This document shows positions 58,994 through 64,000 of a stretch of 64,000 bases of DNA, piece by piece. This DNA is from Burkholderiales bacterium (GTDB lineage Bacteria > Pseudomonadota > Gammaproteobacteria > Burkholderiales > SG8-39): NCBI GenBank assembly GCA_049802235.1, contig JBARMB010000096.1, forward strand, positions 7,473 to 71,472, in the 5' to 3' direction. Position numbers and translations under genes: made by a program. Position 1 is the stretch's first letter. Every line of letters begins with the position of its first letter. A model generated the notes under the pieces. The model saw nothing but the letters and a program-made list of their open reading frames with translations, was not told where the DNA came from and did no database searches.

Positions 58994-59380
58994 ATGAGAG
59001 TCGCAGCGCTGGTCGTCGTTTTACTCGCCGGCTGCGCCACACCGGAGGGCGGCGTCACCGCAGCCAGGGACAGTTGGCACGGCGCCGCCTACGACGAGGT
59101 CGTGCTGCGCTGGGGCACGCCGGTCCGCAGCACCAAGCTCACCGACGGCCGCGACGTCTACACCTGGGTGTCCGAAGACGCGGCCTCTTCGGGAAGTGTC
59201 CGGCCGTCGATCGGCATCTACGGCGGCCGCGGCGGGATGGGCGTCGGCACCGGCGTGATCTTTGGACCCGGCGGCGAGATTGTCCGCTGCGAACGCACCC
59301 TGATCTTCAAGGACGGACGTGTAGAAGAACAGACCTGGCAGGGGCCGGCGGAGTACTGCGATACCTTCCGCCGGAACTGA
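58994..59380 (+). CDS. Lipoprotein of unknown function
   Basis: MRVAALVVVLLAGCATPEG contains a lipobox (LAGC). A GGAGGA RBS lies at 58983. It is 128 aa and internal to track ORF 58637..59380. Confidence 0.65.
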   Translation: MRVAALVVVLLAGCATPEGGVTAARDSWHGAAYDEVVLRWGTPVRSTKLTDGRDVYTWVSEDAASSGSVRPSIGIYGGRGGMGVGTGVIFGPGGEIVRCERTLIFKDGRVEEQTWQGPAEYCDTFRRN

Positions 59381-59559
59381 AGTTTCCGCATAACGAACAA
59401 TTCGTCTCTGACGCGACGGTTTTCCTTCCTGTACCTGATCCAGCAGGCGAGGCTGCCGCCCATGCGGGGTTTCACCTTGTGAGAAATCAGACACCTGAGT
59501 CTCCGGCTGCAACCTATCACAGACTGTATATCAACACAGTTTCCCAAAATGCGATGATT

Positions 59560-59588
59560 TTGCAGGCGATTTCTGGCAAGCGTAGACT
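59560..59588 (+). promoter_or_regulatory. Candidate cassette promoter (Pc-like)
   Basis: TTGCAG-N17-TAGACT points into the cassette array, about 40 bp upstream of the first GTT crossover core. Identified by pattern match only. Confidence 0.25.
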
Positions 59589-59641
59589 TCCGGGTCATGT
59601 TAGTTGGTTTTTCGGAAGATGATTGAACGTTAGCTGACAAG

Positions 59642-59899
59642 ATGATCGAGCAGAACAGCAATCCGAAGCCCAAGGTCACGCGTCACACCAAAGTAGTGAT
59701 CGTCGTCGTCTTTCTCTTGGTGGGCCTCGTCGGACTATATGTCGGAGGTCCTTTGCAGCGCTTCCGATCGAGTGAGGAAAACGCGTGTCACGAAAAGTGC
59801 GCCAAGCTGCAGCGCTCTTGGCGACTTGTCTCACCCTACCCACAAGGTACGGTTGGGCAGGGTCGCTACGACGGCCCGTGGAAGTGCGAGTGCTACTAG
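59642..59899 (+). CDS. Cassette 1 ORF: small membrane-anchored Cys-containing protein
   Basis: 85 aa with one TM (VVIVVVFLLVGLVGLYVGG) and a C-terminal part with 4 Cys (CHEKC...CEC). No clear RBS. Confidence 0.45.
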   Translation: MIEQNSNPKPKVTRHTKVVIVVVFLLVGLVGLYVGGPLQRFRSSEENACHEKCAKLQRSWRLVSPYPQGTVGQGRYDGPWKCECY

Positions 59900-59908
59900 C
59901 TCGTGTGG

Positions 59909-60002
59909 CTTGTCAGCTAACCCGTAGCTGGTGCGGACGGGCCGTCAGCGCCGTGCCACTATTTTGCGCCGTGCGGGCCCGCCGCACAGCACGACGTTAT
60001 GC
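59909..60002 (+). other. attC site 1
   Basis: CTTGTCAGCTAAC...CGGACGGGCC...GGCCCGCCG...GACGTTATGC. It is an imperfect dyad with unpaired bases. R'' is AGCTAAC and R' is GTTATGC. Confidence 0.8.
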
Positions 60003-60017
60003 GTTCGAGAGGAGGCA

Positions 60018-60752
60018 ATGATCGTAAGCGCCGAAACGATGGAATGGCTTCAGTGGGTAGGCCTGACGTCCTTCCCGTTATATCAAGTGGATGGCGAGGA
60101 TAAGCCTGTCGGCGTCGCTTCCGGCTGCCTAGTCAACATCGGCGGACGGAAGCTGATGCTCTCGGTTTCGCACGCAACTGGCAGCGGGCGTTGGGTCGCG
60201 GAAATGAAGTTCGATACAACTCTCGATAAGACCCTAGTTCATTACTTCGGAACGCAATGGACCGCGCGGCACCTTGACCAAACCACATTGATGTCTGAAG
60301 CACTGGATTTTTCCTTTACGGAAGTACCGGCCGACTTCTTTTCAATGATGCAAGAGCGCGATTCTGTCGGAACGATTGTGAATCAACGCCTACGACACGA
60401 GTTCATAACGTCGCTAACGGATCTCCCTATCAATGATGAGTTGTACGCATTCACCGGATGCGTACGCACTGCGCAACTCGATGAAACGACATATTGGTCA
60501 GAACCAAACGTATACCCCGGGCTAAGATACAGGCGCACGGAAGGGTACTACCACATGTTTGAACTACCAGTAGAACACCCTGGCCATGAGGCTTTCAAAG
60601 GCTGCAGCGGAGCCCCGATAGTTGATCGTAAACAAAGAATCGTTGCCCTCGTCTGCTCAGGCGATATCAATTCGAATACCATTACAGGTGTATCGGTACA
60701 TCACATCGCGCGTGCGGTTCATGCGTATCTCGGTGATGGCGGAAACGCATAA
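60018..60752 (+). CDS. Cassette 2 ORF: cytoplasmic trypsin/chymotrypsin-fold serine peptidase-like protein
   Basis: 244 aa with a GAGAGGAGG RBS and no signal peptide. The His-Asp-Ser order is suggested by GCLVNIGGRKLMLSVSHA, ALDFSFTEV and KGCSGAPIVD. Confidence 0.7.
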   Translation: MIVSAETMEWLQWVGLTSFPLYQVDGEDKPVGVASGCLVNIGGRKLMLSVSHATGSGRWVAEMKFDTTLDKTLVHYFGTQWTARHLDQTTLMSEALDFSFTEVPADFFSMMQERDSVGTIVNQRLRHEFITSLTDLPINDELYAFTGCVRTAQLDETTYWSEPNVYPGLRYRRTEGYYHMFELPVEHPGHEAFKGCSGAPIVDRKQRIVALVCSGDINSNTITGVSVHHIARAVHAYLGDGGNA

Positions 60753-60833
60753 CTCAAGGTCGAACGGACGGGCCATAGGCGACGTCCGATCGCTTAGCAT
60801 CGCGCTGGCCCGCCGTTCACCAGGACGTTAGAC
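60744..60833 (+). other. attC site 2
   Basis: AACGCATAAC (containing the ORF stop)...CGGACGGGCC...GGCCCGCCG...GACGTTAGAC. Confidence 0.8.
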
Positions 60834-60838
60834 CGCGC

Positions 60839-61321
60839 ATGGCTTCCGACATCACGCCGACCGCAATTGCCGCATGGTGGGGCGCGACCATCGCGACCCT
60901 GGTGTTCCTATGGGACATCTACAAGTGGCGCCAAGCTGGTGCCCGCATCCGGCTCACTGTGTCGCCCAACATGGAGCACATGGGCGTAATACCGAACTGG
61001 GTCGATCCGAATCAAACGTTGGTCGCCGTTGAAGCGGTGAACGTGGGGAACAAGAAGACAACTATCACCCACATGTTCGCTTGCTACTTTCCGAGTCGCT
61101 GGGCGCGCCTCCGTCGCAAGTCAACGAGGACACTTCTCGTCGGCCTACCGTCTGGAAATCAGCCGCTGCCGCACGAACTCGACCCCGGTGCACGGTGGAT
61201 CGGAGCCATGGTGCAGAATCAGGAACTAGAAGAGTTGAGTCGTAGCGGTTACTTGTGTGTCGGCATCCACCATTCAATGGCAAATAGGGGCCTACTTGTC
61301 CGCCTTGTCATTCCTGCGTAG
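60839..61321 (+). CDS. Cassette 3 ORF: membrane-anchored protein of unknown function
   Basis: 160 aa with an N-terminal TM (AIAAWWGATIATLVFLWDIY) and then a beta-rich soluble part. No family was recognised. Confidence 0.5.
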   Translation: MASDITPTAIAAWWGATIATLVFLWDIYKWRQAGARIRLTVSPNMEHMGVIPNWVDPNQTLVAVEAVNVGNKKTTITHMFACYFPSRWARLRRKSTRTLLVGLPSGNQPLPHELDPGARWIGAMVQNQELEELSRSGYLCVGIHHSMANRGLLVRLVIPA

Positions 61322-61322
61322 A

Positions 61323-61417
61323 GCGCGGTCTAACAACACGCCCCACCCGGACGCGCGCGAGCCAGCGTGCGTTTGCAGTCACCGGGGTGCGCGCGCCGGT
61401 GGGCGTGGACGTTGGGC
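61323..61417 (+). other. attC site 3
   Basis: GCGCGGTCTAAC-AACACGCCCCACCCGGACGCGCGC...GCGCGCGCCGGTGGGCGTGGAC-GTTGGGC. Confidence 0.8.
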
Positions 61418-61432
61418 CCCCTAGGAGATCGC

Positions 61433-62197
61433 ATGGCAATTCAGACGAGTGATCGACTTGCTGTCCTTATAGACGCCGACAACGCCCAGGCTTCAATCGC
61501 TCAAGAGCTATTGACGGAGATCTCCCGGTACGGAACGGCGAGCGTCAAGCGGGCCTACGGAGATTGGACGGCGGCGAATTTGAAAAGCTGGAAAGAGCAT
61601 CTCCATAAGCTCGCAATTCAGCCGATCCAGCAGTTCAGCTATACAACCGGCAAGAACGCCACGGATTCATCGCTGATAATCGACGCGATGGACCTTCTGC
61701 ATTCAGGTCGGGTTGACGGGTTCTGCCTCGTGTCGTCGGATAGTGATTTCACCAGACTTGCCACGCGCGTTCGCGAGTCAGGGGTAGTGGTCTACGGATT
61801 CGGCGAAGCCAAGACGCCCGAACCATTCGTATCTGCCTGCGACAAGTTCATCTACACCGAGATACTGCGTCCGAAGAAGACAGCGCAGGTCGTGCCCGCT
61901 AGCTCGACCGTCCCGCCGCTCGATGAAATCATCAAGACTGCTATCGAAGCTACCGCGAGAGAAAGCGGATGGTCTCCTTTGTCGGGCGTCGGAGCCATGA
62001 TCAGCAAGACCCACCCTTCATTTGACTCGAGGAATTACGGTTTCTCGAAGCTTGGCGAGCTGGTGCGTAAACAGGATTTCTTAGAGGTCAGTGAGGTCCA
62101 GACGGGCGACGGCTCGAACAATGTAGCTTTGTACGTTCGTGTTAGGGGCGCCCAACCCCGTGCTGCAGGGGACGCGCCGCAAGCGGCGCGCCTCTGA
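61433..62197 (+). CDS. Cassette 4 ORF: NYN-domain (LabA-like) nuclease with a C-terminal OST-HTH/LOTUS-like domain
   Basis: 254 aa with an AGGAG RBS. Typical NYN features are LAVLIDADNAQ..., YGDW and GFCLVSSDSDFTRLATRVRESG. The C-terminal ~70 aa (GWSPLSGVGAMISKTHPSFDSRNYGFSKLGELV) look like OST-HTH. Confidence 0.75.
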   Translation: MAIQTSDRLAVLIDADNAQASIAQELLTEISRYGTASVKRAYGDWTAANLKSWKEHLHKLAIQPIQQFSYTTGKNATDSSLIIDAMDLLHSGRVDGFCLVSSDSDFTRLATRVRESGVVVYGFGEAKTPEPFVSACDKFIYTEILRPKKTAQVVPASSTVPPLDEIIKTAIEATARESGWSPLSGVGAMISKTHPSFDSRNYGFSKLGELVRKQDFLEVSEVQTGDGSNNVALYVRVRGAQPRAAGDAPQAARL

Positions 62198-62212
62198 GCT
62201 TTGACGTTAGAG
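62145..62212 (+). other. attC site 4 (short, overlaps the ORF 3' end)
   Basis: GGGGCGCCCAAC...GGGGACGCGCCGC-AA-GCGGCGCGCCTC...GACGTTAGAG. Confidence 0.7.
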
Positions 62213-62224
62213 GTTACCGTAACG

Positions 62225-62671
62225 GTGGCAGCCGCACTGAAAGAAAAACTCCAAGCGCACGCCTTTGAGGCAGCGCTCGCGGCGCTTGGAACCGCTATTC
62301 CGACTTGGCTGTTACTTGCTGAGGCAGAGTTGGTGCCATATGTATCTCAAGTCAGTCCAACGACCGTTCTCCGAGCGGTTGCATTACTCGTGGCCATCGC
62401 GGGATGGTTAACTGCACTCCTGCTCTTCTTCAGACCTCGCCTCAAGTTTGATACAAGACTGGGCATATACCGAGACCGCAAGACTGGCGTTTACTACTGC
62501 TCTTCCTGCTACAGCGCAAAGGTCCGTGCCCCTCTCAAAGAATTTGAAAGTGGATGGCGCTGTGTCGTAAAGGATTGCCTAATGTGGTTTGAGAATCCCG
62601 ATTACAAGGCACCGCCTTCGCCACCTGCGCCTACTGAAAGTCGTCGAAGATCGTGGATTCGAGACTGGTAA
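62225..62671 (+). CDS. Cassette 5 ORF: two-TM protein with a C-terminal zinc-ribbon-like Cys motif
   Basis: About 148 aa from GTG 62225. The track start TTG 62201 lies before the cassette boundary. Features are two TM helices, CSSCYS...CVVKDC, and a Pro-rich tail. Confidence 0.45.
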   Translation: MAAALKEKLQAHAFEAALAALGTAIPTWLLLAEAELVPYVSQVSPTTVLRAVALLVAIAGWLTALLLFFRPRLKFDTRLGIYRDRKTGVYYCSSCYSAKVRAPLKEFESGWRCVVKDCLMWFENPDYKAPPSPPAPTESRRRSWIRDW

Positions 62672-62735
62672 CCTCTAACCACTTAATGCAGCCGACCGGC
62701 CGGAAGCGGCCGGCGGCTGATCAAGACCGTTGAGG
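62667..62735 (+). other. attC site 5
   Basis: GGTAACCTCTAAC (containing the stop)...CAGCCGACCGGCCG-GAAG-CGGCCGGCGGCTG...CCGTTGAGG. Confidence 0.75.
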
Positions 62736-62896
62736 CTGTATAAAAAGTCCCATCGTCGTATTCGAGCCATCAACATGCAGAAATCGGCCTCTCAGAATGC
62801 CCTGTATTCGACGATCGTGACCTCCGGAGAGGTAAACGTACTCCCGAGAATGATGCGATTTTTAAGTTTTAGACTTTTTATACAGCCTCGTTAGGT
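62730..62896 (+). other. ORF-less cassette-like unit with 18-bp perfect terminal inverted repeats
   Basis: It is bounded by GTTGAGG (62729) and GTTAGGT (62890). GAGGCTGTATAAAAAGTC (62732-62749) is the exact inverted repeat of GACTTTTTATACAGCCTC (62872-62889). The interior is AT-rich. Confidence 0.6.
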
Positions 62897-62900
62897 GTCT

Positions 62901-63164
62901 ATGACTACCCCGCGCAAAGGTTCATGGGTGAAAACGACCGTGGTTGCGGTAGCGGTGTTGGCAGCCGGCGTTATCTTGTGGGTCACCGAGCAATCTTTTG
63001 GTCCAGGATTTCGCCCAGTTCCTTTCGTGGAGAAATTTGGGTTCTTGGCCTTTGTCATTGGTGTGCTGGTGGCAATCGCTATCGTTGCTGCTCACTTGTG
63101 GCGAGAGTTCCGGTTGGTCAAGGATTTCGAGCAACGCTATGGCAAACGCGACCAAGACACCTAA
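62901..63164 (+). CDS. Cassette 7 ORF: small two-TM membrane protein
   Basis: 87-89 aa (ATG 62901 or GTG 62895) with two hydrophobic helices and a charged tail (EQRYGKRDQDT). Confidence 0.45.
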   Translation: MTTPRKGSWVKTTVVAVAVLAAGVILWVTEQSFGPGFRPVPFVEKFGFLAFVIGVLVAIAIVAAHLWREFRLVKDFEQRYGKRDQDT

Positions 63165-63248
63165 CCCCTCAATCCAGAGCGGACGGGCCGGAAGCGTTGT
63201 GCCTGTGGTTACATCGCAGCGGCCCGCCGCTGATTTCGAACGTTCGGC
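63155..63248 (+). other. attC site 7
   Basis: AGACACCTAAC (containing the stop)...CGGACGGGCCGGAAGCG...GCGGCCCGCCG...GAACGTTCGGC. Confidence 0.8.
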
Positions 63249-63274
63249 TGAGACACTTACACGAGGAGGAAGTT

Positions 63275-64000
63275 ATGTTAAGGAATGTTTGCGCAGGGAT
63301 CGATGTTTGCACGACACCCGAGCGATTGTTCGTAAAAGCCGTTACGGTTGTGAGAACGGCAGCGATCTTCTTCCCTGTGACCCTCTTGGTTCACGGCGGT
63401 GCAGCCAACGCCGCTGAAATCAAGGTCTTTACCGCTAGAGCGATCGCGACCGTGTTGGAGAAGATCGGGCCTGAGTTCGAGCGCACTACCGGCCACAAGC
63501 TCAACGTGATCACCGGCTTCAGCCCTATCTTCGTAAAGCGGATCAATGCTGGCGAGCCGTTTGATGTTGTTGTCAGTCCACCGCCTACCATCGACGGATT
63601 GATCAAGGACGGCAAGGTCCTTGCCGCTACGCGTACCAATCTCGTCCGCTCCGGCATTGGCGTGGAAGTGCGCGCGGGCGCGCCCAAACCTGACATCAGC
63701 TCGGTCGAGGCATTCAAGCGTGCGCTGCTCAATGCCAAATCGATCGGCTATCTCCCGATCGGTGGGGTGCCGCAGCTGGTCGATCGGCTTGGAATCGCGG
63801 ATGCCATCAAGTCGAAAACCACAATACCGGCTTCGGATATCGTTTCCGAACTTGTAGCCAAAGGCGAACTCGAGCTCGGGGTGGTGGTTATCACGCAGAT
63901 TCTGACGACACCCGGCGTCGAACTGGTCGGACCGCTCCCGCCGGAGATTCAGTTCTACACCGTGTTCACCGCTGGCGTCAGCGCCAACTCAAAGGCGCCG
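63275..64000 (+). CDS. Periplasmic substrate-binding protein, ModA/PBP2-like (3' end beyond window)
   Basis: The frame is open from ATG 63275 (AGGAGGA RBS) to the window edge, and it is not in the ORF track. AAEIKVFTARAIATVLEKIGPEFERTTGHKLNVITGFSP...PFDVVVS resembles molybdate/anion-type binding proteins. Confidence 0.65.
   Translation, partial: MLRNVCAGIDVCTTPERLFVKAVTVVRTAAIFFPVTLLVHGGAANAAEIKVFTARAIATVLEKIGPEFERTTGHKLNVITGFSPIFVKRINAGEPFDVVVSPPPTIDGLIKDGKVLAATRTNLVRSGIGVEVRAGAPKPDISSVEAFKRALLNAKSIGYLPIGGVPQLVDRLGIADAIKSKTTIPASDIVSELVAKGELELGVVVITQILTTPGVELVGPLPPEIQFYTVFTAGVSANSKAP

What the first reader, a model, noticed from the sequence alone, without database searches (positions are those of the whole stretch)
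59381..64000. Integron gene-cassette array with at least seven attC sites and no integrase in view (CALIN or deleted-intI integron)
From 59.6 kb on, every ORF is followed by a 68-95-bp imperfect palindrome that begins with an RYYYAAC-type box and ends with a GTTRRRY-type box. The ORF stop codon often lies inside the first box. The decisive observation is that the bases after each GTT crossover are the reverse complement of the start of the next attC downstream, as expected for units that circularise at G/TT. The pairs are as follows. 59629 GTTAGCTGACAAG versus 59909 CTTGTCAGCTAAC (13/13). 59996 GTTATGCGTT versus 60744 AACGCATAAC (10/10). 60827 GTTAGACCGCGC versus 61323 GCGCGGTCTAAC (12/12). 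61411 GTTGGGCCCCCT versus 62145 GGGGCGCCCAAC (10/12). 62206 GTTAGAGGTTACC versus 62667 GGTAACCTCTAAC (13/13). 62890 GTTAGGTGTCT versus 63155 AGACACCTAAC (11/11). Three attCs share the CGGACGGGCC/GGCCCGCCG inner dyad, with unpaired bases. GC content drops visibly and all ORFs are co-oriented. None of the cassette products is a recognisable resistance gene; they are orphan or poorly characterised proteins. Chromosomal cassette arrays have recently been linked to phage defence and other adaptive functions, so this is the most likely place in the window for an undescribed system.
Basis: partly seen in the sequence, partly recalled or inferred. Interest (0 to 1): 0.8.

Follow-up and report, generated by a model that had tools for sequence, protein, structure and literature searches.

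The report
Integron cassette array without integrase
The right-hand end of the window is a genuine but ordinary integron gene-cassette array with no integrase in view, and one of its recombination sites is split by a small transposon whose family appears to aim specifically at such sites.

Summary
From 59,629 to the window end, seven co-oriented gene cassettes are separated by six canonical attC sites at 59915-60002, 60747-60833, 61328-61417, 62150-62212, 62673-62735 and 63159-63248. All six start/end complementarities are exactly as stated. There are 5 exact GTT-led inverted repeats of 10 nt or more, against 0.06 in shuffles and 0 in the other 59 kb.

A covariance model built from four sites recovers the two held-out sites. 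It finds nothing else in 64 kb, and it hits true attCs of class 1 integrons.

IntI1 finds no homologue in the window, although the same search finds IntI at 52-71% identity in other loci. As seen, this is a CALIN, which is a known and common kind.

One correction: the "seventh attC" before 62890 is not an attC. It is a 158-bp MITE (62732-62889) with 17-bp perfect inverted repeats and GTT on both sides, inserted in the R' box of attC5. Its 1.74-kb autonomous relatives encode an IS1182-family transposase. In metagenomes they sit at the same G|TT position of many different attC sites. I found no description of this in the literature I searched.

Cassette products:
- a divergent Ser-protease fold
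- an NYN+LOTUS protein
- a ModA-like binding protein
- four small membrane orphans

No defence-system signature was found.

The parts
59381..59628 (+). Left junction. This is 248 bp of low-GC non-coding DNA between a host lipoprotein gene (58994-59380) and the first crossover GTT (59629). It is not an attC. It may be a remnant attI, a secondary insertion site or a deletion scar.
   Evidence: The attC model gives no hit here. The strand does not fold better than shuffles, z = +0.36. IntI1 finds no similarity. Three assemblies break here.
59630..59996 (+). Cassette 1: ORF 59642-59899 (85 aa, membrane-like orphan) plus attC1 59915-60002.
59997..60827 (+). Cassette 2: ORF 60018-60752 (244 aa, divergent chymotrypsin-fold serine protease with no signal peptide evident) plus attC2 60747-60833. 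The stop codon lies inside R''.
   Evidence: H52, D97 and S197 are conserved. The model has pLDDT 92.8 and matches HtrA/DegS/V8 proteases. Homologues are cassettes elsewhere.
60828..61411 (+). Cassette 3: ORF 60839-61321 (160 aa, N-terminal membrane segment, no family) plus attC3 61328-61417.
61412..62206 (+). Cassette 4: ORF 61433-62197 (254 aa, NYN nuclease-like domain plus OST-HTH/LOTUS) plus attC4 62150-62212. The ORF reads through most of its attC.
   Evidence: Pfam NYN 5e-40 and OST-HTH 7e-15. phrog_37744 1e-65. attC4 was held out of the model and scored 29.7 bits.
62207..62731 (+). Cassette 5: ORF 62225-62671 (148 aa, membrane plus Cys-rich C-terminus, no family) plus attC5 62673-62735. 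Its R' GTT (62729-62731) is now followed by the MITE end.
   Evidence: Held-out hit of 33.9 bits. Hairpin z = -5.7.
62732..62889 (.). 158-bp MITE with perfect 17-bp terminal inverted repeats GAGGCTGTATAAAAAGT, flanked by GTT/GTT (62729-62731 and 62890-62892). It is a non-autonomous derivative of an IS1182-family IS that inserts at the G|TT point of attC R' boxes.
62891..63242 (+). Cassette 6: ORF 62901-63164 (87 aa, two membrane segments, orphan) plus attC 63159-63248. The stop codon lies inside R''.
63243..64000 (+). Cassette 7, cut by the window end: ORF 63275->64000. It is 269 aa and complete in contig L008, ending at window-equivalent 64084. It is a ModA-like periplasmic binding protein (SBP_bac_11). 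A degenerate attC follows at about 64162-64224.
   Evidence: Pfam 1e-26. TIGR01256 scores below its cut-off. L008 extension. The family is large, with more than 7,300 homologues.

Best explanation
This is a chromosomal array of integron gene cassettes. [quoted passage not shown]

Each unit is one promoterless ORF followed by an attC site. In single-stranded form the attC bottom strand folds into a hairpin. The hairpin has paired R''/R' boxes, paired L''/L' boxes with one extrahelical T, and a variable loop. An integron integrase would cut it between G and TT of the R' box. That cut explains why the first bases of each cassette are the reverse complement of the start of that cassette's own attC.

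Shown here: the site anatomy, the circular-permutation signature, the absence of intI and of a recognisable promoter in cis, and the presence of cassette 2 in other arrays.

Inferred: the cassettes were assembled by an IntI that has since been lost or separated, or that is encoded elsewhere. Any present-day excision would need an integrase supplied in trans. Expression would depend on read-through from the co-oriented upstream lipoprotein gene or on internal promoters.

One attC (attC5) has since been hit by a 158-bp MITE of an IS1182-family lineage that inserts at the GTT of attC R' boxes and duplicates it. The MITE end, GAGG..., recreates a GTTRRRY-like box, so attC5 still scores as an attC.
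For: - Complementarity is exact and far above chance.
- The consensus hairpin has 24 pairs, 10 of them with compensatory changes, and an unpaired base at the same column in all sites.
- All six bottom strands fold with the extrahelical T; five of the six minimum-energy folds also pair the terminal R boxes.
- A covariance model from four sites recovers the two held-out sites (E = 4e-8 and 9e-7). Nothing else in the window scores above 16.1 bits.
- The same model's top five hits in 44 kb of class 1 integron DNA are genuine attCs at the 3' ends of aac(6')-Ib, blaVIM-2 and qacG2.
- IntI1 (100% identical to annotated intI1) gives no tblastn hit in the window (best E = 0.9). It detects IntI at 52-71% identity in other loci.
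- The 9.3 kb to the left carries only housekeeping Pfam families.
- No sigma-70-like promoter is found in 59300-64000.
- GC drops by about 10 points.
- An 84%-identical cassette-2 homologue has the same ends, GTTATGCGTT...AACGCATAAC. It lies in a different genome between different genes, with different neighbouring cassettes and a truncated attC.
- Homologues at 60% and 40% identity are also bounded by attC hits.
- Relatives that share the flanking DUF2157-DUF4824 pair have no attC sites.
- The definition and frequency of CALINs come from PMC4889954 and PMC8618304.
Against: - IntegronFinder's own attC model and intI profiles could not be run. My model was derived from the sites themselves, although it was cross-validated.
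- The right side is seen for only 245 bp beyond the window, so an integrase there is not excluded. Array orientation places intI on the left.
- The left junction is unexplained.
- The last attC seen lacks its GTT box.
- No genome of the same species was available to show strain-to-strain turnover of this particular array.
- Recombination activity is untested.
Confidence: 0.9

Rival explanations
1. The array is still part of a working integron. The integrase lies outside the window: at the unseen right end, or elsewhere in the genome after an IS-mediated split. Cassettes are still being shuffled in trans.
For: Half of all CALINs are in genomes that encode IntI elsewhere, and IS elements are implicated in splitting integrons (PMC4889954). 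The attCs are intact and similar to each other. An IS-derived MITE is present. Three assemblies break at the left junction, which fits population heterogeneity.
Against: The array's polarity places intI/attI on the left. There, 59.6 kb contains no IntI-like sequence, and the adjacent genes are housekeeping. The rest of the genome could not be searched.
Confidence: 0.3
2. The 158-bp unit at 62732-62889 is not a transposon. It is a very short integron cassette, moved by IntI as TT...G, whose recombination site is the 17-bp palindrome around GTT.
For: The unit's boundaries coincide exactly with G|TT crossover points on both sides. It carries a possible 39-codon ORF whose first codons recur in related copies. 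The transposition model and the IntI model predict the same boundaries.
Against: Units of 1.74 kb with the same ends encode a DDE transposase of the IS1182 family, scoring 280 bits against a cut-off of 270. The joined ends would put GTT in a hairpin loop instead of in a paired R box, and there are no L boxes. The attC model gives no hit inside the unit. A 98%-identical 220-bp copy sits in two unrelated attC sites, as expected for transposition.
Confidence: 0.05
3. The palindromes are ordinary intergenic repeats, such as REP-like elements or terminators, and not integrase recombination sites.
For: They are GC-rich hairpins placed after ORFs. For some sites the folding z-scores alone are modest, from -1.5 to -2.5.
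Against: Terminators and REP elements do not explain several features. These are the 10-13-nt complementarity between each cassette's first bases and its own downstream site, the invariant AAC/GTT boxes, the single extrahelical base, and the cross-recognition of class 1 attCs. No terminator-like T-tracts follow the sites. The sites occur nowhere else in the 64 kb.
Confidence: 0.02
4. Several cassettes together form a new anti-phage or stress-response system, for example protease plus membrane protein plus NYN nuclease.
For: Cassettes of unknown function in integrons have been shown to encode defence systems (bioRxiv 10.1101/2024.07.02.601719). Cassette 2 has marginal PADLOC matches to the protease part of RT-Protease_XI and to LmuA, E about 4e-3. 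NYN domains are nucleases.
Against: Each gene has its own attC and so is an independent mobile unit. The cassette-2 homologues have entirely different neighbours in L010, L012 and L013. No PADLOC family is significant for any other cassette.
Confidence: 0.05

Closest known systems
[quoted passage not shown] 2016, PMC4889954)
   Same: Two or more co-oriented attC sites less than 4 kb apart, no intI nearby, cassettes of mostly unknown function, and a chromosomal location in a beta/gamma-proteobacterial genome. The size, six to seven sites, is typical: the reported mean is about 5 attC sites.
   Different: Nothing essential differs. The right end is unseen, so the label is provisional.
Sedentary chromosomal integrons (e.g. 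Vibrio, Xanthomonas)
   Same: Chromosomal location, fairly homogeneous attC sites (three share the same L-box core), small orphan ORFs and lower GC than the host.
   Different: No intI, attI or Pc is in view. The array seen is short.
attC sites of class 1 mobile integron cassettes (aac(6')-Ib, blaVIM-2, qacG2)
   Same: Same architecture: R''-L''-loop-L'-R' with AAC/GTT boxes. They are recognised end to end by the model built from the window's sites.
   Different: Sequence similarity outside the boxes is low, with scores of 16-22 bits against 82-86 for the model's own four training sites (30-34 for the two held-out window sites). The cargo here is not resistance genes.
IS1111-attC insertion sequences and group IIC-attC introns (the known attC-targeting mobile elements; PMC11187229, PMC3001079)
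   Same: Like them, the element in attC5 and its relatives are found at one fixed position in attC sites of many different cassettes. Each transposase lineage keeps a fixed orientation.
   Different: The machinery differs. This is a DDE transposase of the IS1182 family with 17-bp terminal inverted repeats and a 3-bp GTT duplication. IS1111-attC elements use a DEDD enzyme guided by an RNA, and the introns are retroelements. Non-autonomous MITE forms of 157-220 bp are common.
IS1202-family subgroup (ISAjo2-like) that targets XerC/D dif and pdif sites (PMC10132070)
   Same: A DDE-type IS aimed, in one orientation, at the recombination site of a tyrosine recombinase.
   Different: The IS family, the target site (attC against dif) and the distance to the crossover point all differ. 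Here the insertion is at the crossover triplet itself.

Membership tests
Integron attC recombination site | An R'' box ending in AAC and an R' box starting with GTT, in inverse orientation, 50-150 bp apart, immediately 3' of an ORF. | tested here: met
   AAC and GTT are invariant in 6 of 6 sites. Lengths are 63-91 bp. Each site starts within 17 nt of a stop codon or overlaps it. The four outer box positions fit RYYY/RRRY only loosely.
Integron attC recombination site | The folded bottom strand forms a hairpin with paired R and L boxes, an unpaired spacer, extrahelical base(s) on the R''-L'' arm and a variable loop. | tested here: met
   All six fold this way. One extrahelical T sits at the same position in the L box in all six (GGCCCG-T-CCG in the three sites that share that core). 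There are 24 consensus pairs, 10 with compensatory changes.
Integron attC recombination site | Circular-permutation signature: the bases after each G|TT are complementary to the R'' region of the next attC downstream. | tested here: met
   Six of six pairs show 10-13 nt complementarity. Five exact repeats are observed against 0.06 expected.
Integron attC recombination site | Recognition by an attC covariance model. | tested here: met
   The model was self-built from four sites. The held-out sites score 33.9 and 29.7 bits. Genuine class 1 attCs are its top hits in L005-L007. IntegronFinder's own model could not be run.
Integron attC recombination site | Bound and recombined by an integron integrase. 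| not testable with these tools
   This needs an in vivo or in vitro recombination assay.
Complete integron | An intI gene (tyrosine recombinase with the IntI-specific insertion) next to the array. | tested here: not met
   tblastn with IntI1 gives a best E of 0.9 in 64 kb. The query was verified and a positive control worked. No integrase Pfam family is called in the 9.3 kb to the left. The right side beyond +245 bp is unseen.
Complete integron | An attI site and a Pc promoter upstream of the first cassette. | tested here: inconclusive
   The first GTT (59629) is preceded by a non-attC sequence. No sigma-70-like promoter was found. attI sites have no general model.
CALIN | At least two attC sites on one strand, each less than 4 kb from the next, with no intI within 4 kb. 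| tested here: met
   Six sites lie 0.5-0.8 kb apart on the + strand. No intI lies to the left. The right flank is seen for only 245 bp.
IS1182-family insertion sequence (non-autonomous MITE derivative) | Terminal inverted repeats shared with autonomous copies that encode an IS1182-type DDE transposase; flanking target duplication; multiple copies at different sites. | tested here: met
   The 17-bp repeats are identical to IRL of the 1.74-kb elements. Their 507-aa product scores 280 bits on NF033551, cut-off 270, and has DUF772 plus DDE_Tnp_1_6. GTT lies on both sides in 25 of the 26 complete copies. A 98%-identical MITE sits at two unrelated sites. The window copy has no transposase.
Known anti-phage defence systems (PADLOC) | A significant match of cassette proteins to a defence-system model, with the system's partner genes present. 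| tested here: not met
   Only cassette 2 matches, marginally (E = 0.004-0.006) and over about 40-100 residues of the protease region. No partner genes are present.

The most novel reading that the evidence does not exclude
The 158-bp element in attC5 belongs to a previously undescribed attC-specific lineage of IS1182-family insertion sequences and their MITEs. These elements insert at the G|TT crossover triplet of integron attC R' boxes, duplicate GTT, and keep a fixed orientation for each transposase lineage. Their end rebuilds a GTTRRRY-like box, so the interrupted attC stays recognisable. This would be a third class of integron-targeting mobile element, and the first DDE/MITE one. It is widespread in environmental integrons.
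Probability: 0.45. Interest if true: 0.55.

Novelty: new member of a known kind. Interest (0 to 1): 0.3.

Why it matters
The array adds one more integrase-less cassette cluster from an uncultured beta/gamma-proteobacterium. It carries seven uncharacterised cargo genes, which is useful as catalogue material but not surprising.

It does show that cassettes such as the divergent cytoplasmic serine protease circulate between distant genomes with their boundaries intact.

The more useful by-product is the transposon. If DDE-type IS elements and MITEs home to the exact integrase crossover point of attC sites, three things would follow:
- They are a systematic source of assembly breaks and of mis-called cassettes in integron surveys.
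- They are a possible route by which arrays are split into CALINs.
- They offer a tractable case of a transposase recognising a structured recombination site.

Tried and rejected
- MAFFT alignment of all six attCs misaligned the two short sites. I built the model from the four long sites and used the short ones as a hold-out.
- A strict RYYYAAC...GTTRRRY regular-expression scan found nothing because the outer box positions are loose. I dropped it.
- Extension to the right: exact-protein look-ups gave only short Logan contigs, L001 and L008. Only 245 bp were gained.
- Extension and variation on the left: the MAG contig and a Logan contig both stop before the junction.
- Relatives from the genome collection share only DUF2157-DUF4824 at 37-81% identity. 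This is too distant for a strain-level turnover test.
- Rfam and tRNA scans of the window found nothing.
- I looked for a remnant intI in the left junction by six-frame translation and found none.
- The closest plasmid-borne transposases (44% identity, Pseudoalteromonas) did not show the same ends, so the target preference could not be extended to them.
- Literature searches for IS1182 with attC, MITE with attC, and DDE IS elements targeting attC returned nothing relevant. The library lacks most subscription journals and ISfinder notes, so absence is weak evidence.
- Reading the 158-bp unit as an ORF-less cassette was considered and rejected (see rivals).

Full report

Yes. The complementarities are as stated: 13/13, 10/10, 12/12, 10/12, 13/13 and 11/11.

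I also counted 10-mers that start with GTT and have an exact reverse complement 100-1000 nt downstream. The region 59381-64000 has five. Three hundred dinucleotide-preserving shuffles average 0.06, with a maximum of 2. The other 59.4 kb of the window has none.

GC content falls from 0.62-0.73 to 0.51-0.60 at about 59.3 kb. All plausible ORFs in the region are on the + strand.

**2. Are the palindromes attC sites?**

Measured from the R'' box to the R' box, the sites are at these coordinates:
- 59915-60002
- 60747-60833
- 61328-61417
- 62150-62212
- 62673-62735
- 63159-63248

The four long sites align with 72% mean column identity. They give a consensus hairpin of 24 pairs, 10 of which show compensatory changes. 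The terminal TAAC/GTTA boxes pair, a short spacer is unpaired, and one column is unpaired in every sequence.

Folded as single-stranded DNA, all six bottom strands adopt this shape. A single extrahelical T interrupts the L-box stem at the same place in all six; in the three sites that share that core it reads GGCCCG-T-CCG. The 96 nt before the first GTT (59540-59635) do not fold better than shuffles.

I built a covariance model from the four long sites only. Scanning the whole window on both strands without filters gave these results:
- The two held-out short sites were returned at their exact boundaries, with 33.9 bits (E = 4e-8) and 29.7 bits (E = 9e-7).
- The next best hit anywhere in 64 kb scored 16.1 bits.

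For an independent check I fetched three class 1 integrons from plasmids. The model's five best hits in those 44 kb are the real attC sites at the 3' ends of aac(6')-Ib (three loci), blaVIM-2 and qacG2. Each was matched end to end, from RYYYAAC to GTTRRRY, on the cassette strand. IntegronFinder's own model is not available here, and this is the nearest substitute.

**3. Is there an integrase?**

The IntI1 sequence I used is 100% identical to annotated intI1 genes. It finds nothing in the window by tblastn; the best E-value is 0.9.

The same search finds integron integrases at 52-71% identity in four environmental loci fetched later, so the negative result is meaningful. The 9.3 kb immediately to the left encode only housekeeping families:
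- a peptide ABC transporter
- an M20 peptidase
- DUF2157
- DUF4824
- a lipoprotein

No integrase family is among them. No sigma-70-like promoter is predicted between 59300 and 64000.

The polarity of the attC sites puts the expected position of intI/attI on the left, where host genes lie. By the published operational definition this is a CALIN. That definition requires attC sites less than 4 kb apart on one strand with no integrase nearby. The source paper reported 279 such elements in complete genomes, averaging about five sites, with mostly unknown cargo; half were in genomes without any IntI (PMC4889954; PMC8618304).

The left junction (59381-59628) is neither an attC nor an intI remnant. 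Its origin is open: a former attI, a secondary site or a deletion scar.

**4. Do the cassettes turn over?**

Distant relatives that share the flanking DUF2157-DUF4824 gene pair have neither the cassettes nor any attC hit.

Cassette 2's protein family has about 130 members, mostly on short contigs. Three homologues were examined in context:
- An 84%-identical copy in another assembly has the same cassette ends, GTTATGCGTT...AACGCATAAC. It lies between pyruvate-dehydrogenase genes and argG, next to a ParE toxin cassette, and its attC is truncated after CGGACGGG.
- A 60% copy in a 5.4-Mb contig is bracketed by three attC hits.
- A 40% copy in Thioalkalivibrio is followed by an attC hit.

The units are therefore mobile and independent, as cassettes should be.

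**5. What do the cassettes encode?**

| Cassette | Product | Evidence |
|---|---|---|
| 1, 3, 5, 6 | 85-160-aa proteins with predicted membrane segments and no family in Pfam, NCBIfam, PHROGs or PADLOC | |
| 2 | Serine protease fold (details below) | |
| 4 | NYN domain plus OST-HTH/LOTUS | |
| 7 | ModA-like periplasmic binding protein of a very large family | |

Cassette 2 has no Pfam match, but H52, D97 and S197 (in GCSGAP) are conserved across 38 homologues. Its AlphaFold model has pLDDT 92.8. The model matches HtrA, DegS, V8 and chymase proteases at about 10% identity. It is a divergent chymotrypsin-fold serine protease, apparently cytoplasmic.

The reading frame of cassette 4 runs through most of its own attC.

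Cassette 7 is completed in contig L008.

PADLOC gives only marginal protease-region matches for cassette 2. Nothing supports a multi-gene system. The different neighbours of cassette-2 homologues argue against one.

**6. The correction: the "seventh attC" is a transposon junction**

Between attC5 and the next cassette lies a 158-bp unit (62732-62889). It has perfect 17-bp terminal inverted repeats, GAGGCTGTATAAAAAGT, and GTT on both sides.

Removing the unit and one GTT restores attC5 with the R' box GTTAGGTGTCT.

Of 121 occurrences, 55 are preceded by GTT and 16 by AAC; the latter is the other end read in reverse. The rest lie in AT-rich, unrelated contexts.

Twenty-six complete copies fall into three size classes, 157-159 bp, 219-220 bp and about 1.4-1.76 kb; all but one divergent copy are bounded ...CGTT|GAGGCTG...CAGCCTC|GTT(A/G)....

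The long form encodes a 507-aa DDE transposase. It passes NCBI's IS1182-family model (280 bits, cut-off 270) and has DUF772 plus DDE_Tnp_1_6.

Several results tie these elements to attC sites:
- Of 45 left ends with enough flank, 30 abut an attC hit of my narrow model that ends exactly at GTT+GAGG. Only 1 of 43 control loci has any attC hit.
- In nine complete copies, the 11 nt after the right end reappear as a 10-11/11 reverse complement a few hundred bp downstream. The element therefore sits exactly at a cassette boundary.
- A 98%-identical 220-bp copy occurs in two unrelated attC sites with unrelated flanks, which shows independent transposition.
- The main transposase lineage is co-oriented with the cassettes in 13 of 13 informative loci. 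A lineage at 59% identity (3 loci; attC orientation confirmed by the model in only one) lies the other way round.
- Four element-bearing loci also carry intI. In L030 the MITE sits in the first cassette's attC.

Two Logan contigs of the window's own locus break and overlap at the MITE's left repeat. This fits a repeated sequence.

**7. Comparison with known elements, and novelty**

The array is a new member of a well-known kind (CALIN, or a sedentary-integron-like array). It meets every attC criterion I could test. It fails the complete-integron criterion of an adjacent intI.

The known elements that home to attC sites are the IS1111-attC group and group IIC-attC introns (PMC11187229, PMC3001079). 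The IS1111-attC group uses a DEDD enzyme guided by RNA. The closest analogue in logic is the IS1202 subgroup that targets XerC/D dif sites (PMC10132070).

I found no report of an IS1182-family or MITE lineage with attC specificity. However, the searchable library is incomplete and ISfinder could not be consulted.

How the transposase finds the GTT of R' is not shown. It could recognise the sequence or the folded structure. The fixed orientation suggests that it recognises an asymmetric feature of the site.

**8. Verdict**

The thing itself is ordinary, and the defence-system hope is unsupported. The only part that might be new is the attC-homing IS1182/MITE family, found through the mis-called seventh site.

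Noticed in passing
window 62732-62889; loci L015-L134 (e.g. L022 6-1743, L033 4350-4506, L035 103-322, L130 3840-4058): An IS1182-family IS (about 1.74 kb, 507-aa DDE transposase) and its MITEs of 157-220 bp share 17-bp ends GAGGCTGTATAAAAAGT. They lie at the GTT of attC R' boxes in many environmental cassette arrays, with GTT on both sides and a fixed orientation for each lineage. I did not find this in the literature I searched.
   Followed up: yes
window 61433-62197 versus attC4 62150-62212: The NYN/LOTUS ORF of cassette 4 has no stop codon before its attC. It reads through about 48 nt of the site, so its last 16 residues or so are encoded by the recombination site.
   Followed up: no
window 59506-59517 and L008 1404-1415 (window-equivalent about 64132): An exact 12-nt repeat, GCTGCAACCTAT, occurs in the non-coding left junction of the array and again just after the last visible cassette gene. 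The chance expectation is about 0.003 for these two short stretches, but the repeat was found post hoc.
   Followed up: partly
window 59306, 59462, 59605: Three independent assemblies stop at the array's left edge: MAG contig L009, and Logan contigs L136 and L001. This suggests a repeat or population heterogeneity at the junction between host DNA and the first cassette.
   Followed up: partly
L008 1434-1496 (window-equivalent 64162-64224): The attC expected after the last cassette has the predicted R'' box (GCCGAAC) and a bulged stem like the others. Where GTT should be, the sequence reads TATAAGG, and the contig ends 21 nt later. This is either a decayed terminal site or another insertion.
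   Followed up: partly
L010 9580-9990 and 10735-10800: In another genome the 84%-identical copy of cassette 2 keeps its 5' boundary and the first 30 nt of its attC, and the attC then breaks off at CGGACGGG|AATTCC. The neighbouring small cassettes there use a different, shorter repeat ending AACGCCGTCCATTAAGTTA. This locus is an example of a decaying mini-array between core genes.
   Followed up: partly
L030 917-1858, L078 9119-9970, L129 613-1435, L132 3161-3619: Environmental integron integrases (52-71% identical to IntI1) lie on contigs that also carry the MITE. In L129 the integrase match is split into two pieces, possibly a frameshifted gene.
   Followed up: no
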